From a virus, in UHGV virus genome UHGV-0397187: a stretch of DNA of 41,531 bases; one strand, written 5' to 3'. Below, one piece after another: positions 1 through 41,531 of this stretch. The position numbers and the translations under genes were made by a program. The notes beneath the pieces were generated by a model. That model searched no databases and was not told the DNA's origin. It saw nothing but the letters and a program-made list of their open reading frames with translations. The number at the start of each line of letters is the position of its first letter. Position 1 is the stretch's first letter.

Positions 1-55
1 GGTATCTGATTATCTCCTGTGCCCACATCCCTTTTCGCCGCTTCTCCCAAACCAA
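1..55 (-). CDS. tail-fibre variable C-terminal segment, 5' fragment (no own start codon; continues left of the window)
   Basis: Minus-strand translation of 1-55 reads [20 protein letters not shown], identical to the residues that follow the crossover site in the tail fibre at 39614-40309; DNA is the reverse complement of about 39951-40005. Confidence 0.5.
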   Translation of the reverse strand, partial: MVWEKRRKGMWAQEIIRY

Positions 56-67
56 CGTTTATGAAAA
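42..67. other. hix/gix-like 26-bp invertase crossover site (copy at window start)
   Basis: ttctcccaaacc-aa-cgtttatgaaaa: left half-site identical to the sites at 39939-39964 and 41482-41507; matches the recalled Hin hixL pattern TTCTTGAAAACCAAGGTTTTTGATAA in the conserved half. Confidence 0.6.
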
Positions 68-121
68 TGCAGAAATAACGAGCAAATGGCGTCATTCCTG
101 CTTTTGTCAGGGTGATCTACC

Positions 122-414
122 ATGTTTATAGGCTATGTACGCGCATCAACAAATGACCAGGACACCGATTTACAACGCAATGCGTTGATCTGTGCAGGAT
201 ATGAGCTGATTTTTTGAGGGTAAATCATCAGCATGAGACTAATAATTTAGCGTCCAATTCTGGGCTTTTTGGTTGCACCCTCTCCGCCCAGAATTGCGCG
301 CCAATTGGCCCAGAAAAAAACGCGAAGTTACAAGTTCCTCGCCAGAAGGTGGCGATCATCTATGATGTTGGCATATCGACTTTGTATAAGAAGTTTCCGG
401 TCGGAGATAAATGA
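122..414 (+). pseudogene. pin: serine DNA invertase (Pin/Hin/Gin family) remnant with internal deletion
   Basis: 122-217 encodes MFIGYVRASTNDQDTDLQRNALICAGYELIF then a stop (invertase N-terminus with the catalytic-Ser motif); the 214-414 frame ends ...RQKVAIIYDVGISTLYKKFPV, resembling the invertase C-terminal HTH; the central catalytic domain is missing. Confidence 0.7.
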
Positions 415-574
415 AACCGTAGCACGTCGTATGCAAGAACGTGCCACGGCTGGCTGATGGACGTTCGATAGCGCGAGTTTGAATGAAAATCAGCCGGAGG
501 TGATTTTACATAATTGTTGCGGAATCATTCAATATAGGGATTGCTTATTTCTGCCTGGATTGGTCTGAAATAGT

Positions 575-2305: not shown

Positions 2306-2494
2306 TCACGAGGACAGAAGTTTCTCGCAATTAAAATTTATCAGCTTTACTTTCTGCTCTCTGGACACGCCTGCTTCTTTTTTCCCTGAGAGCATTTTTT
2401 CGCATTCTGATTTCGTTAATTTAGATTTTGAATATCTTGTCCAGTTAGTAGGAGTGCCACCTTCTTTTTCAATAGTGGCAGTTATTTTATACAT
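2306..2494 (-). CDS. hypothetical small protein (position of Rac ydaC); start uncertain
   Basis: ORF 2306-2566 on minus strand; a later Met is chosen to limit overlap with the downstream lar-like gene. Confidence 0.35.
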   Translation of the reverse strand: MYKITATIEKEGGTPTNWTRYSKSKLTKSECEKMLSGKKEAGVSREQKVKLINFNCEKLLSS

Positions 2495-7012: not shown

Positions 7013-7407
7013 AATTATCTCCATTTTTACAAATGAACTTTGTTGATGCGGTGCCTGGTGCCTCCAGGTGACGTTAACCAGTTAACAATTAACGCCGGAT
7101 AATCCACCCATAACACTGATGCTTTTAACTGTGCCGCGTGCGCTTAGCCGCATTCACCGCATCACAAAATTCACTTTAAAAAGGGGCAGCAGGGCAGCCA
7201 CGGAGTAGAACTGATGCCGCCAAAGACTACACATAGCAATGTCGTTATTTACAACCGGAGGCGCACTCCCACCATTTAAATTTAACAGACAAGACCGACT
7301 CTTTATGAATACCGGAAATGCGCCTTCGTGTTGTGCGCCTGTCTTTTTACCACTTCAGGCTCGGTGGTATACTGGAGTTCTCACACAACCAGTAATAAGG
7401 TATTCCG

Positions 7408-14608: not shown

Positions 14609-14946
14609 ATTACCGAGTAAGGCGATGGACTACCTGAAGCGAAACGGGCTGACAAGCGTGGAGGATATTTTACGATGACCTGGCCTGAGGCATTCACCAC
14701 GGTAGGAATTGCAATGGCGGTGGCGCTGGTGGTGTATTCGATTTGCCGCTGGGGATAAAAACGGTTTGCGGGAAAAGGAGAGTTAAGTAGAATTGCAGCG
14801 GGTGCTTGAGGCTATCTGCCTCGGGCATGAACACCAACGGCAGATAGATAAAAGCCCCACCCGACTATAAATCGAAGTGAGGCCCCTATATGCTCGTCAC
14901 ATATAGATTGCCTCTTACGGACCGAAAGGTCAAGGAGAAGCAGGCT

Positions 14947-15102
14947 ATGAAGCAGCAAAAGGCGATGTTAGTCGCCCTGATCGTCATCTGTTTAACCGTC
15001 ATAGTGACGGCACTGGTAACGAGGAAAGACCTCTGCGAGGTACGAATCCGAACCGGCCAGACGGAGGTCGCTGTCTTCACAGCTTACGAACCTGAGGAGT
15101 AA
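14947..15102 (+). CDS. hok: Hok/Gef-family type I toxin
   Basis: MKQQKAMLVALIVICLTVIVTALVTRKDLCEVRIRTGQTEVAVFTAYEPEE: hallmark Hok sequence; aaggag RBS; in-frame upstream extension from 14890. Confidence 0.9.
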   Translation: MKQQKAMLVALIVICLTVIVTALVTRKDLCEVRIRTGQTEVAVFTAYEPEE

Positions 15103-17102: not shown

Positions 17103-17128
17103 CTCAATCTGTTATCCGGGGCTATATT
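17099..17128 (+). promoter_or_regulatory. late promoter PR'-like (sigma70)
   Basis: -35 ttgact (17099-17104), 18-bp spacer, -10 tatatt (17123-17128). Confidence 0.6.
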
Positions 17129-17189
17129 CCTCACGCGCCAGCAAAATCTGGCGTCGGGATTGGCGTCCCGGATAGAGACCGCGACAGAT

Positions 17190-17213
17190 ACACGCCGCGA
17201 GCGTGTTTTTTAT
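17190..17213 (+). terminator. tR'-like intrinsic terminator about 65 nt downstream of PR'
   Basis: acacgc-cgcga-gcgtgt followed by tttttatt. Confidence 0.6.
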
Positions 17214-17372
17214 TGTCGTATGCACGCGCACATCTGAATTATGGTGGGCTGTGTGGGGGCGGAGAGATCCGCGCCGGTCGGTTTCCCGGTTACGCCAACC
17301 CTGCACAGTTCACCACCAGATGATTGGCGTCGTCGGTGGTGAGTTATTAAGAAACCACCAGAGGGCGTCATT

Positions 17373-38937: not shown

Positions 38938-39614
38938 GCAAATACACCGAACTGATCACGAACTACCACGCCACCAAACCTAAATTTCTTGCACATGTTG
39001 ATCTGATGACCCGGCCGCTTATTGATGTTGCGGCTGCCACCAGAGGGCTGATTACTGCATTTGATATTGACTCTGCGGTTGGTGTGCAACTTGACATTCT
39101 TGGATTGTGGATCGGACGTAGCCGTGTTGTCAGCCAGCCTATCTCAGGTGTCTATTTCAGCTGGGATACCGACGGGCTTGGATATGATCAGGGTGTATGG
39201 CAGGGGCCATACGATCCTGATTCCGGATACATGTACCTCAGCGATGAAACTTATCGTGTCATCCTTAAAGCGAAGATTGCGATTAATAACTGGGATGGAC
39301 GGAATGATTCGCTTCCGGCAATTCTTGACGCGGCGACAGCAGGATCCGGACTGCGAATGCAGATAGTCGATAACCAGGACATGACGATATCGGTCTGGGT
39401 CTTTCCTGATACTGATATTTCAGATGTATCGCGTGAGTTAATTGCTGCAATTAAACAGGGATATCTCACAGTAAAAGCCGCCGGGGTTTGGGCGGGTGGC
39501 ATTGAAACACCTTCGGTGGAAACTCCATCGGAAGGTTCAAAATTTTTTGGTTTTGATATGGATAACGAATTCATCAGTGGTTTTGATGTAGGGGCATGGG
39601 GAGTATTACTCTGA
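38934..39614 (+). CDS. baseplate/tail protein (gpI-like)
   Basis: 226-aa ORF immediately upstream of the tail fibre gene. Confidence 0.55.
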
Positions 39615-40309
39615 TGGCGAAAAATGACTTTAAAGCGTTTGCAACTGATCGGAATGCCAATGTTATGTCGCAGGAGGAATGGGAAGCGTTGCCTGCGCTT
39701 TTATCCGGATTTACAGCAGGGAAAGCATCCAGTGCGCAAGTCAATAAGGTTATTCGGCAGGCCAGCTTTATTGCTGCAGCTCTGGCCCAGTTTGTAAGTG
39801 ACAAAACGCAACGGGATGTGCTTGATAATGGTGATCTGCCCGGTTTTGTTGAATTGCTGGGATCGGGGTTTGCTGTTGAATACCTGAGCCGCAAGAATCC
39901 GTTTGGCGATATCAAATCGGATGGCACGGTGAAAACGGCTCTCGAAAACCTTGGTTTGGGAGAAGCGGCGAAAAGGGATGTGGGCACAGGAGATAATCAG
40001 ATACCGGATATGGGAGCATTCGCTTCTGGTTCGGGATGGTTCAGGCTACCAGGTGGATATATTGTTCAGTTTGGCACTTTTTCAGGAAACACGACCCGCT
40101 TTATCAGTGGACACTTCCCTATACCATTCCCTAATCAGCCGATGGTTTCAGTCAGTGTTATGTCTGATGCCGTTCAGTCAGACCCGTCGAATCCTGCCCC
40201 GCAGGTTTTGTCTGTAAATTTTGAACATATCAGTAATTCAGCGTGGCGTGTGGCAACCAGTGATATCTCACAGCAATACAGATTCAGTTATATTTCGATA
40301 GGACGGTAG
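39614..40309 (+). CDS. tail fibre protein with invertible C-terminal half
   Basis: ATG at 39614 overlaps the previous stop; the hix-like site lies inside the coding region at 39939-39964, splitting a constant N-terminus from a variable C-terminus. Confidence 0.8.
39939..39964. other. hix/gix-like 26-bp crossover site (left, inside tail fibre gene)
   Basis: ctctcgaaaacc-tt-ggtttgggagaa, exact reverse complement of 41482-41507. Confidence 0.8.
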
Positions 40310-40311
40310 AA

Positions 40312-40752
40312 ATGCAGAAATATATTTTCAGTGCCGATAAAAATGCGTTTTTCCCTGTGGAGCTTAAAATCGCTTATCAGGAATCCGGCGAATGGCCCGA
40401 TGATGGAATCGAAATTGACGACACTGTTGCCGCCGAATTTATGAAGGAAGCACCAGAAGGAAAATACAGAGGTGTCATCGACGGAATGCCTGCATGGATT
40501 GATATTCCACCGCCAACTCATGAGGAACAAATTGCCGCAGCCGAACTGGAAAAGCAGCAATTGATTAATCAGGTCAACGAATACATAAACAGTAAGCAAT
40601 GGCCTGGTAAAGCGGCGATTGGTCGCCTGAAAGGTGAGGAACTGGCGCAATATAATTTGTGGCTGGATTATCTGGACGCACTGGAGCTGGTCGATACTTC
40701 CGGTGCGCCAGATATTGAATGGCCTACGCCTCCGGTAACTCAGGCCAGCTAA
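40312..40752 (+). CDS. tfa: tail fibre assembly protein (Tfa)
   Basis: 146-aa ORF right after the fibre; C-terminal VDTSGAPDIEWP motif shared with Tfa'. Confidence 0.8.
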   Translation: MQKYIFSADKNAFFPVELKIAYQESGEWPDDGIEIDDTVAAEFMKEAPEGKYRGVIDGMPAWIDIPPPTHEEQIAAAELEKQQLINQVNEYINSKQWPGKAAIGRLKGEELAQYNLWLDYLDALELVDTSGAPDIEWPTPPVTQAS

Positions 40753-41119
40753 TCTCAGGAGCCGTCGAAGTGTCGACGGCTTTTACTTCTTTTTTGTAGT
40801 ACATCCAGGCGGATAGTTTTTCTTTATCTGTACTGCTAATATCACCAAGCATTAATTCCACTCGCCAGTCAGCTGTGACATTATCGGCATGAGAAAGTAA
40901 CTGCATTCGCTGATTTTCCGCACGTGCGACATAATCAATCACCGGGGATTTCAGTACCGGTAAACCATTTTCATCTGACGTAATTAATTTACCCCCTTCC
41001 TGCTGTCCGGCAATTAATTCATTGTATAAGTCTGTACTTATCTCAACAATGTCAGCAGGCATGTCGCTGTTTATACCATCGAAGAAAAAACCATTAGTCG
41101 ATTTTGAGAAATAAATCAT
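40724..41119 (-). CDS. alternative tail fibre assembly protein (Tfa')
   Basis: MIYFSKSTNGFFFDG...; C-terminus ...VDTSTAPEISWP parallels Tfa; convergent with Tfa and overlapping its 3' end. Confidence 0.75.
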   Translation of the reverse strand: MIYFSKSTNGFFFDGINSDMPADIVEISTDLYNELIAGQQEGGKLITSDENGLPVLKSPVIDYVARAENQRMQLLSHADNVTADWRVELMLGDISSTDKEKLSAWMYYKKEVKAVDTSTAPEISWPELPEA

Positions 41120-41127
41120 AGATATAC

Positions 41128-41531
41128 CTATACACCGATTGCTACCCAAAAACAGGACCTTTCATATTTGACAATTTCTCCCTGAGATATACCGCCAACA
41201 ATTATATAGAACTGTGATTTGCTGATATCAGAACAGTTCGCTATGCCCATTGCAGATATACCCGCCACCGACGTTGTATGTGGTACAGCCAACAGCGCAA
41301 GTGAACGATTTGGGAATGTTACCGGGTAAGTCACCGTATAGTTTGATGCTCCACTGACAATACCCCACTGAATAATCAGACCCGAAGGTAGTTTTTGAAA
41401 ACCCGTTGATGAAAGTGAACTGGCAAACGCCGCCATATCCGGAATTTGGTTTTGCCCGTTACCTACATTCCGTTTTGCCGCTTCTCCCAAACCAAGGTTT
41501 TCGAGAGCCGTTTTCACCGTGCCATCCGATT
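41128..41531 (-). CDS. alternative tail fibre C-terminal segment (no own start; expressed only after inversion)
   Basis: Minus-strand translation ...[41 protein letters not shown]... shares the constant-region junction with the fibre at 39614-40309, then diverges. Confidence 0.75.
41482..41507. other. hix/gix-like 26-bp crossover site (right)
   Basis: ttctcccaaacc-aa-ggttttcgagag; near-palindromic half-sites around a 2-bp core. Confidence 0.8.

What the first reader, a model, noticed from the sequence alone, without database searches (positions are those of the whole stretch)
40724..40790. Convergent Tfa/Tfa' overlap with a plus-strand terminator hairpin embedded in Tfa' coding sequence
Tfa (plus) and Tfa' (minus) overlap by about 29 nt. 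The hairpin gccgtcga-agtg-tcgacggc plus T-run directly after the Tfa stop lies within Tfa' codons (AVDTSTA), so the same DNA serves as a terminator on one strand and coding on the other.
Basis: seen in the sequence. Interest (0 to 1): 0.35.

Follow-up and report, generated by a model that had tools for sequence, protein, structure and literature searches.

The report
Terminator hairpin inside silent tail-fibre chaperone gene
Two phage tail-fibre chaperone genes in a flippable DNA segment overlap tail to tail by 29 bases, and the stop signal for transcribing the active gene appears to be written into the coding sequence of the silent one, which is a tidy but fairly ordinary piece of genome compaction.

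Summary
Tfa (40312-40752, +) and Tfa' (40724-41119, -) are both PF02413 tail-fibre assembly proteins and overlap by exactly 29 nt. A perfect 8-bp hairpin (40761-40780) followed by TTTTACTTCTTTTTT starts 8 nt after the Tfa stop and is encoded by Tfa' codons K-AVDTSTA.

The 29-nt overlap is already annotated widely, for example tfaP/tfaE of E. coli K-12 e14. The hairpin is not general. It belongs to one Tfa' lineage and occurs in about 18% of sampled overlap junctions.

Within that lineage the stem looks selected. The only two freely variable stem positions stay complementary (C-G, U-A, U·G). Every wobble variant pairs only on the strand antisense to Tfa'. Unpaired Tfa genes coding the same AVDTSTA peptide mostly use non-complementary codons and carry a normal intergenic terminator instead.

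The best reading is a one-directional intrinsic terminator for the baseplate/tail-fibre operon, active only in the orientation seen here. Termination itself is untested.

This is a new variant of a known kind, of modest interest. In passing: the invertase gene at the window start is disrupted, and both window ends are flipped-state junctions.

The parts
36588..36611 (+). Terminator-like hairpin (AAAACCCGCC-TTCGAG-TGGGTTTT, then TTGC) just upstream of the baseplate V gene. It is the likely upstream boundary of the V-W-J-I-S-Tfa unit.
   Evidence: ORF layout
36633..39614 (+). Baseplate genes: V-like spike 36633-37385, W-like 37385-37738, J/gp47 37738-38937, DUF2612 38934-39614. They lie upstream of the fibre gene on the same strand.
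   Evidence: names from the homologous locus L003
39614..40309 (+). Tail-fibre gene with a constant N-terminal part and a variable part Sv (gp53-like C-terminal domain, PF21882). This is the expressed fibre in the present orientation.
39941..39965 (.). Left crossover site CTCGAAAACCTTGGTTTGGGAGAAG, inside the left inverted repeat 39915-40023.
40312..40752 (+). Tfa, the tail-fibre assembly chaperone expressed in this orientation (146 aa, PF02413).
40720..40747 (.). Imperfect palindrome TGGCCTACGCCTCCGGTAACTCAGGCCA. It codes WPTPPVTQA.. on the + strand and WPELPEA* on the - strand. It holds the 29-nt overlap (40724-40752) and the mosaic joint between the Sv-Tfa and Tfa'-Sv' modules.
40761..40780 (+). 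Hairpin GCCGTCGA-AGTG-TCGACGGC, the stem-loop of the proposed intrinsic terminator. On the minus strand it is codons AVDTSTA of Tfa'.
40781..40795 (+). U-rich tract TTTTACTTCTTTTTT, the complement of Tfa' codons K-K-E-V-K.
40724..41119 (-). Tfa', the silent chaperone gene of the alternative fibre (131 aa, PF02413). It belongs to the 'K-AVDTSTA-P' lineage that carries the hairpin.
41128..41531 (-). Sv', the silent alternative fibre C-terminal part (gp53-like C domain). It runs off the window end.
41481..41505 (.). Inverted copy of the crossover site (CTTCTCCCAAACCAAGGTTTTCGAG), inside the right inverted repeat 41423-41531.
41..67 (.). Outer crossover site CTTCTCCCAAACCAACGTTTATGAAAA, next to the invertase gene. 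Bases 1-55 are the reverse complement of 39953-40007, the start of Sv.
122..414 (+). Disrupted pin-type serine invertase gene. It has a frameshift near position 212, and about 270 nt of the catalytic core are missing or replaced relative to intact pinE.

Best explanation
The window holds a Pin/Gin-type invertible tail-fibre segment: Sc | Sv-Tfa > < Tfa'-Sv' | invertase. The two chaperone genes are fused tail to tail over a palindromic WPxPP-coding core, so no intergenic space is left.

In the orientation present here, transcription of the baseplate/fibre operon (about 36633 to 40752) passes the Tfa stop. Eight nt later it makes an 8-bp G+C-rich hairpin followed by UUUUACUUCUUUUUU, a Rho-independent terminator that also gives the mRNA a protected 3' end. 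That signal is built from the antisense of Tfa' codons K-AVDTSTA. A-V-D (GCC GTC GA) is the reverse complement of S-T-A (TC G ACG GC), and the Lys AAA codons supply the U-run.

The signal is one-directional. When the segment flips, the hairpin lies in the translated Tfa' mRNA with no U-run behind it. The Sv'-Tfa' transcript then has no equivalent terminator and must end by Rho action in the untranslated antisense stretch, or read on towards the invertase gene.

Shown: the anatomy, conservation of the stem, the strand asymmetry and the association with context. Inferred: that RNA polymerase actually terminates there, and with what efficiency.
For: 1. Anatomy and strength. Core hairpin energy is -11 to -13 kcal/mol in all variants. 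This is similar to the canonical P2-G-like terminator after unpaired Tfa genes and to the Mu U/U' hairpin.

2. Position. Unpaired Tfa genes are followed 5-8 nt after their stop by a classic intergenic terminator such as AAGGCGGGC-TGAT-GCCCGTCTT TTTTATGA. The embedded hairpin sits at the equivalent place, 8-23 nt after the partner's stop, across junctions with 29-, 20- and 17-nt overlaps.

3. Codon choice. Among unique Tfa 3' ends coding AVDxSTAP, a hairpin on the antisense strand was present in 26 of 28 convergent-overlap cases and in 5 of 59 others. After clustering at 80% identity the counts are 7/2 against 2/27, Fisher p=9e-5.

4. Covariation. Six of the 8 stem pairs are fixed by the amino acids. 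Of the two free third-position pairs, one shows C-G x4, U-A x4 and U·G x4, and the other is C-G in 13 of 15 lineages. Neighbouring four-fold sites in the loop and flank take 3-4 states.

5. Strand specificity. Every wobble variant (L035, L039, L160, L161, L381 twice, L341) is G·U on the terminator strand and a C·A mismatch on the Tfa' mRNA. None goes the other way. Sense-strand stability drops from about -11 to about -7 kcal/mol in these variants.

6. Operon boundary. A matching terminator-like site precedes the operon at 36588-36611.

7. Precedent. Phage Mu has a hairpin in the 28-nt spacer between U and U' at the centre of its G segment.
Against: - No transcript data were available.
- In most relatives the U-tract is weaker than here (UUUCACUU...), so efficiency may be modest.
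- About 80% of sampled overlap junctions, including K-12 e14 and the nearest relatives of this prophage (L003, L277), have no embedded terminator on either strand. The function is therefore dispensable.
- Covariation rests on essentially one base pair. The lineages are related, so phylogenetic inertia is not fully excluded.
- The Lys residues that make the U-run could be kept for protein reasons.
Confidence: 0.62

Rival explanations
1. By-product of coding. The conserved Caudo_TAP peptide AVDTSTA happens to be self-complementary with common codons, and the AAA Lys codons give a T-run. The hairpin would have no transcriptional role and persist by descent.
For: The AVDTSTA peptide is widespread in Tfa proteins regardless of context. 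Six of 8 stem pairs follow from the amino acids alone. About 8% of non-convergent genes (5 of 59) show full complementarity by chance. Most overlap junctions do without a terminator.
Against: There is strong enrichment in the convergent context after clustering. The stem third positions are kept while adjacent four-fold sites are scrambled, in lineages only 50-59% identical in protein. The wobble asymmetry is one-sided.
Confidence: 0.2
2. The hairpin acts on the RNA mainly as a 3'-end protective stem-loop. Transcription would end further downstream by Rho in the untranslated antisense Tfa' region, and exonucleases would trim back to the hairpin. It would stabilise the message rather than terminate it.
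For: The U-tract is weak in many relatives (UUUCAC...) while the stem is conserved. The region after the Tfa stop is untranslated on that strand, which is the setting in which Rho acts (established knowledge). The strand-specific conservation is explained equally well.
Against: In this window the U-tract is good: 4 U directly after the stem, 12 U in 15 nt. The first three U (codon AAA) are kept in nearly all hairpin lineages.
Confidence: 0.1
3. The hairpin works in the Tfa' mRNA (sense strand), for example as a translational pause, an RNase site or a stability element when Tfa' is the expressed gene.
For: The perfect-stem variants fold equally well on both strands. The module is found in the expressed orientation in 9 of 26 assemblies.
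Against: In at least six cases the sense-strand stem is broken by C·A mismatches while the antisense stem keeps G·U, and no reverse case was seen. The stem lies in translated sequence, where ribosomes would melt it.
Confidence: 0.04
4. DNA-level role. The palindrome would be a recombination or cruciform site that promotes exchange of fibre modules or assists inversion.
For: Mosaic joints between modules fall about 15-35 bp away, in the palindromic overlap at about 40735-40748.
Against: The joint maps to the WPxPP-coding palindrome, not to the hairpin. The crossover sites are at 39941-39965 and 41481-41505. In the P1 annotation the inversion enhancer lies in the invertase gene. G·T-containing variants argue for an RNA stem rather than a DNA stem.
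Confidence: 0.04

Closest known systems
Invertible tail-fibre segments of the Gin/Cin/Pin family (Mu G segment, P1 C segment, e14 P segment)
   Same: The layout is the same: a constant fibre part outside the segment, two convergent Sv-Tfa sets inside, inverted repeats with about 26-bp crossover sites, and an adjacent serine invertase. K-12 e14 tfaP/tfaE have the identical 29-nt overlap. Mu has a hairpin at the centre of the segment.
   Different: In Mu and P1, U and U' do not overlap and the hairpin sits in a 28-nt non-coding spacer. e14 and most other overlapping pairs have no hairpin. Here the hairpin is built from codons of the silent gene, and the invertase gene is disrupted.
Intrinsic terminator after the last gene of a tail-fibre operon (the Tfa gene of unpaired, P2-G-like systems)
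   Same: It serves the same gene family and has the same position a few nt after the Tfa stop, with similar hairpin energy and a U-run.
   Different: The canonical one is intergenic and unconstrained by coding. This one must also encode K-AVDTSTA, so only two stem positions are free to vary.
Overlapping 3' ends and bidirectional terminators of convergent bacterial genes (Ju et al. 2019, as summarised in PMC13500782; 3'UTR review PMC7821165)
   Same: It is a convergent gene pair with a termination signal shared with, or lying inside, the neighbour's territory.
   Different: It is not bidirectional, because there is no U-run on the minus strand. Only one of the two genes has a promoter-fed transcript at any time, so RNA polymerase collision is not expected.
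Phase-variable terminator in the fim switch controlling fimE (Joyce and Dorman 2002, cited in PMC9881135)
   Same: It is a terminator carried on an invertible element, so it acts in only one switch state, with a recombinase gene nearby.
   Different: The fim case is Rho-dependent and was shown experimentally to control the recombinase. Here any effect on the downstream invertase is pure inference, and in this window the invertase gene is a pseudogene.

Membership tests
Intrinsic (Rho-independent) terminator | G+C-rich stem-loop (about 5-14 bp, loop 3-8 nt) | tested here: met
   8 perfect pairs, 6 of them G-C, with a 4-nt loop. The core stem-loop folds at -13.2 kcal/mol and the 61-nt region at -18.6 kcal/mol with z=-3.1.
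Intrinsic (Rho-independent) terminator | U-rich tract directly 3' of the stem on the transcribed strand | tested here: met
   UUUUACUUCUUUUUU at 40781-40795. It is weaker (UUUCAC..) in several relatives.
Intrinsic (Rho-independent) terminator | Lies just downstream of the last stop codon of a co-oriented transcription unit | tested here: met
   The core stem starts 8 nt after the Tfa TAA, and Tfa is the last + strand gene of the baseplate/fibre block.
Intrinsic (Rho-independent) terminator | Structure conserved through compensatory change | tested here: inconclusive
   One of the two free pairs covaries (CG/UA/UG). The covariation score was reached by 14 of 500 shuffles. The evidence is limited by coding constraint and by relatedness of the lineages.
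Intrinsic (Rho-independent) terminator | RNA 3' ends or transcript release at the U-tract | not testable with these tools
   No transcript data were available. K-12 e14, for which public 3'-end maps exist, lacks this hairpin.
Bidirectional terminator of convergent genes | U-tract after the hairpin on both strands | tested here: not met
   The minus strand continues CCUGAGAUUAGC. No terminator-like site follows the Tfa' stop in any locus.
Gin/Cin/Pin-type invertible tail-fibre segment | Inverted repeats with crossover sites flanking two convergent fibre/chaperone sets | tested here: met
   The repeats 39915-40023 and 41423-41531 are 84% complementary. The crossover sites align with those next to pinE in L003 and L004.
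Gin/Cin/Pin-type invertible tail-fibre segment | Adjacent functional serine invertase | tested here: not met
   The gene at 122-414 is frameshifted and lacks about 270 nt of the core. It is intact in relatives.
Gin/Cin/Pin-type invertible tail-fibre segment | Both orientations occur | tested here: met
   In related assemblies the hairpin-bearing gene is silent in 17 and expressed in 9. Both window ends are flipped-state junctions.
Caudo_TAP (PF02413) tail-fibre assembly proteins | Full-length match above the Pfam gathering score | tested here: met
   Tfa scores 119.5 bits and Tfa' 83.5 bits against a cut-off of 22.1.
Phase-variable terminator controlling a recombinase (fimS/fimE type) | Orientation-dependent read-through changes recombinase expression | not testable with these tools
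   Only the geometry fits: the invertase is always downstream and co-oriented with the late operon.

The most novel reading that the evidence does not exclude
The embedded terminator makes the two states of the switch transcriptionally unequal. With Tfa expressed, late transcription stops cleanly at the centre of the segment. With Tfa' expressed, it runs antisense through Tfa and Sv and into the co-oriented invertase gene. Segment orientation would then feed back on invertase expression and bias switching, an orientational control analogous to fimE but built from a dual-coding intrinsic terminator.
Probability: 0.1. Interest if true: 0.55.

Novelty: new variant of a known kind. Interest (0 to 1): 0.3.

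Why it matters
If confirmed, this is a clean natural example of one short DNA stretch under two selective pressures at once: a protein motif on one strand and an RNA terminator on the other. Because the amino acids fix six of the eight stem pairs, the effect of the RNA constraint can be read directly in the remaining synonymous sites.

It has a practical side. Terminator finders that discard hits inside coding sequences (as in bioRxiv 10.1101/2024.07.17.603904) would miss such operon ends. Engineers who swap fibre/chaperone modules to retarget phages would unknowingly add or remove the operon terminator.

It also shows that the two states of an invertible host-range switch need not be equivalent in transcription. 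It does not change how tail-fibre switching or termination is understood.

Tried and rejected
- A protein-alignment search of genome contigs returned only 3 relatives, so it gave no useful diversity.
- The metagenome pattern scan returned 120 loci, but only 6 were Tfa genes. They still added L294, L341, L381 and L386.
- Five literature searches found no description of a terminator inside a tail-fibre chaperone gene or of the Tfa/Tfa' overlap as such. Ju et al. 2019 is not held.
- Bidirectional terminator: rejected, because there is no U-run on the minus strand.
- A mirror-image terminator inside Tfa for the flipped state: not found. Only a weak site exists at 40434-40417, and none lies between the Tfa' stop and the invertase in the flipped locus L004.
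- Hairpin as crossover site or inversion enhancer: rejected. The sites map to the segment ends, and the enhancer lies in the invertase gene in the P1 annotation.
- Using K-12 3'-end maps: not possible, because e14 has the TfaE-type partner without the hairpin.
- P1's very detailed annotation lists no terminator between U and U'.

Full report
**What is in the sequence**

The last 2 kb of the window is an invertible tail-fibre segment of the Gin/Cin/Pin kind.
- The fibre gene (39614-40309, +; gp53-like C-terminal domain) is followed by Tfa (40312-40752, +; PF02413, E=1.4e-34).
- On the other strand lie Tfa' (40724-41119; 131 aa; PF02413, E=1.8e-23) and a second fibre C-terminal part, Sv' (41128 to beyond 41531).
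- Inverted repeats 39915-40023 and 41423-41531 (84% complementary) contain the crossover sites.
- Tfa and Tfa' share 40724-40752, exactly 29 nt.
- Eight nt after the Tfa stop comes GCCGTCGA-AGTG-TCGACGGC (40761-40780), followed by TTTTACTTCTTTTTT. On the minus strand this reads K-K-E-V-K-A-V-D-T-S-T-A.
- The consensus scan ranks it first among + strand sites in this region, and it is one of about seven strong sites in the whole window.
- It folds at -18.6 kcal/mol, z=-3.1.
- The minus strand has no U-run after the hairpin.

**The overlap is common and already annotated**

The same 29-nt overlap is annotated in several unrelated phage backgrounds:
- a P2-like phage (L001)
- a Mu-like phage (L002)
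- a prophage of the same type as the window (L003)
- a P2-like prophage of strain SFE8 (L398)
- tfaP/tfaE of the K-12 e14 element

Among non-redundant convergent Tfa pairs in the first sample (15 + 4 + 1 + 2 = 22 pairs), overlaps were 29 nt in 15 pairs, 20 nt in 4 and 17 nt in 1. Two further pairs had a frameshifted partner.

The overlap is an imperfect palindrome, TGGCCTAnnCCnCCGGnnnnnnAGGCCA, which codes the conserved WPxPP end of the family on both strands. In this window the last residues of Tfa (VTQAS) are simply the antisense of the partner's S-W-P-E-L codons.

Megablast matches to hundreds of phages and 2549 E. coli genomes mostly stop at window position 40748. The overlap is therefore also the joint at which Sv-Tfa and Tfa'-Sv' modules are reassorted.

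**The hairpin belongs to one Tfa' lineage**
- In L002, L003, L277 and e14 the same Tfa gene faces a 197-200-aa TfaE-type partner, and the hairpin and T-run are absent.
- In an unbiased sample of 72 unique palindromic-overlap junctions, only 13 carry the GCCGTYGA...TCRACGGC hairpin. All 13 have a partner ending ...K-AVD[TV]STAP...
- The TfaE-type end (TATDTSTAP) cannot form the stem, because Thr replaces Val.
- The module occurs in 118 of 5426 complete E. coli genomes.

**Is the stem selected?**

A degenerate search for any DNA coding AVDTSTAP gave a natural experiment: many Tfa genes with the same peptide but free codon choice.
- Six of the eight stem pairs follow from first and second codon positions. 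Only Ala1(3)-Thr6(3) and Val2(3)-Ser5(3) are free.
- Among unique 3' ends, both free pairs were complementary on the antisense strand in 26 of 28 convergent-overlap cases, against 5 of 59 others.
- After clustering at 80% nucleotide identity the table is 7/2 against 2/27, Fisher p=9e-5.
- In an alignment of 15 convergent lineages, some only 50-59% identical in protein, the Val/Ser pair is C-G x4, U-A x4 and U·G x4. The Ala/Thr pair is C-G in 13 of 15.
- The four-fold sites in the loop and just outside the stem take three or four states.

The formal covariation score is modest (reached by 14 of 500 shuffles), because only one pair can really covary.

**Which strand is selected?**

All variants that pair only by wobble are G·U on the strand antisense to Tfa' and C·A mismatches on the Tfa' mRNA. 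These are L035, L039, L160, L161, both free pairs of L381, and L341. No lineage shows the opposite intermediate, GTT with TCG.

Core stem energies stay at -11 to -12 kcal/mol on the antisense strand. On the sense strand they fall to about -7 in these variants.

This argues for an RNA made from the + strand of the window, which is the Tfa transcript. It argues against a role in Tfa' mRNA or in DNA.

**Why a terminator?**
- Unpaired Tfa genes in the same data are followed within a few nt by a textbook intergenic terminator such as AAGGCGGGC-TGAT-GCCCGTCTT TTTTATGA.
- The embedded hairpin sits at the equivalent place and has similar energy.
- The residue before the stem is Lys AAA in 26 of 30 convergent cases, against 7 of 57 others. 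This gives the first three U.
- A terminator-like site at 36588-36611 precedes the first baseplate gene, so the block 36633-40752 looks like one unit bounded by two terminators.
- Phage Mu carries a hairpin in the 28-nt spacer between U and U'. A central stop signal in such segments therefore has a precedent. Here the spacer is gone and the signal has moved into codons.

**Limits**
- No transcript data exist for this element.
- Most relatives have a weaker U-tract (UUUCAC...).
- Most overlap junctions have no embedded terminator at all, so it is dispensable. Rho acting on the untranslated antisense RNA is the obvious fallback.
- After inversion (state seen in L004 and 8 other assemblies, against 17 in the present state) the hairpin lies in translated Tfa' mRNA without a U-run. 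No other + strand terminator is found before the end of the invertase gene.
- The invertase is always downstream and co-oriented with the late operon. This allows, but does not show, orientation-dependent read-through into it.

**Comparison with known systems**

This is a member of the Pin/Gin/Cin class of fibre switches, and both genes are ordinary PF02413 chaperones.

The element meets the sequence definition of an intrinsic terminator. It fails that of a bidirectional terminator.

The overlap is already known from annotation. I found no description of the embedded terminator in five literature searches.

I rate it a new variant of a known kind, with modest interest.

Noticed in passing
window 1-460 and 41481-41531: The window starts with the reverse complement of the start of Sv (1-55 matches 39953-40007). 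Next come the outer crossover site (41-67) and a pin-type invertase gene that is frameshifted and lacks about 270 nt of its core (122-414). The window ends with Sv' joined across a crossover site to inverted Sc sequence. Both contig ends are therefore flipped-state junctions, while the interior holds the unflipped Sc-Sv junction. The contig is probably a circular permutation broken in the inversion repeat and assembled from a mixed-orientation population, with inversion supplied in trans. A multi-cassette system is the alternative.
   Followed up: partly
window 40735-40748; L001-L003: The mosaic joint between the Sv-Tfa and Tfa'-Sv' modules falls inside the palindromic 3' overlap. Most of 2594 E. 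coli records and 49 phage records match only up to 40748. The same Tfa is paired with different partners in P2-like, Mu-like and SEN34-like phages.
   Followed up: partly
L030, L033, L129 (equivalent to window 40790-40795): The A6 run of Tfa' (complement of the distal T-run) has lost one A in some contigs. This frameshifts Tfa' so that it ends ...KKK*, 30 nt short of the partner. It is a possible cost of carrying a homopolymer for the U-tract.
   Followed up: no
window 36588-36611: A strong + strand terminator-like hairpin (AAAACCCGCC..GGGTTTT, then TTGC) lies directly upstream of the baseplate spike gene, after a small ORF at 36183-36524.
   Followed up: no
L163 (phage Mu) 2503-2532: The Mu U/U' spacer hairpin AAGGCCCG-ATAG-CGGGCCTT has a clearly better T-run on the minus strand (AATTTTTATT) than on the plus strand (CTCTCATTC). 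In Mu too, the two G-segment states may differ in termination.
   Followed up: no
window 2310-2488, 7184-7235, 14800-14949, 17122-17320: Rfam hits above gathering score: RalA antitoxin sRNA, DicF (minus strand), sok, isrK, and C4 antisense RNA with its a1/b1 targets. The window is a lambdoid-type early region joined to a myovirus tail module related to vB_EcoM-611R5/689R2 and Salmonella phage SEN34.
   Followed up: no
L341 (metagenome contig Ga0308166_1038495): A K-AVDVSTAP Tfa gene without a convergent partner still has the antisense-strand hairpin, with one G·U pair. It may be a relic of a former paired arrangement or a chance case.
   Followed up: no
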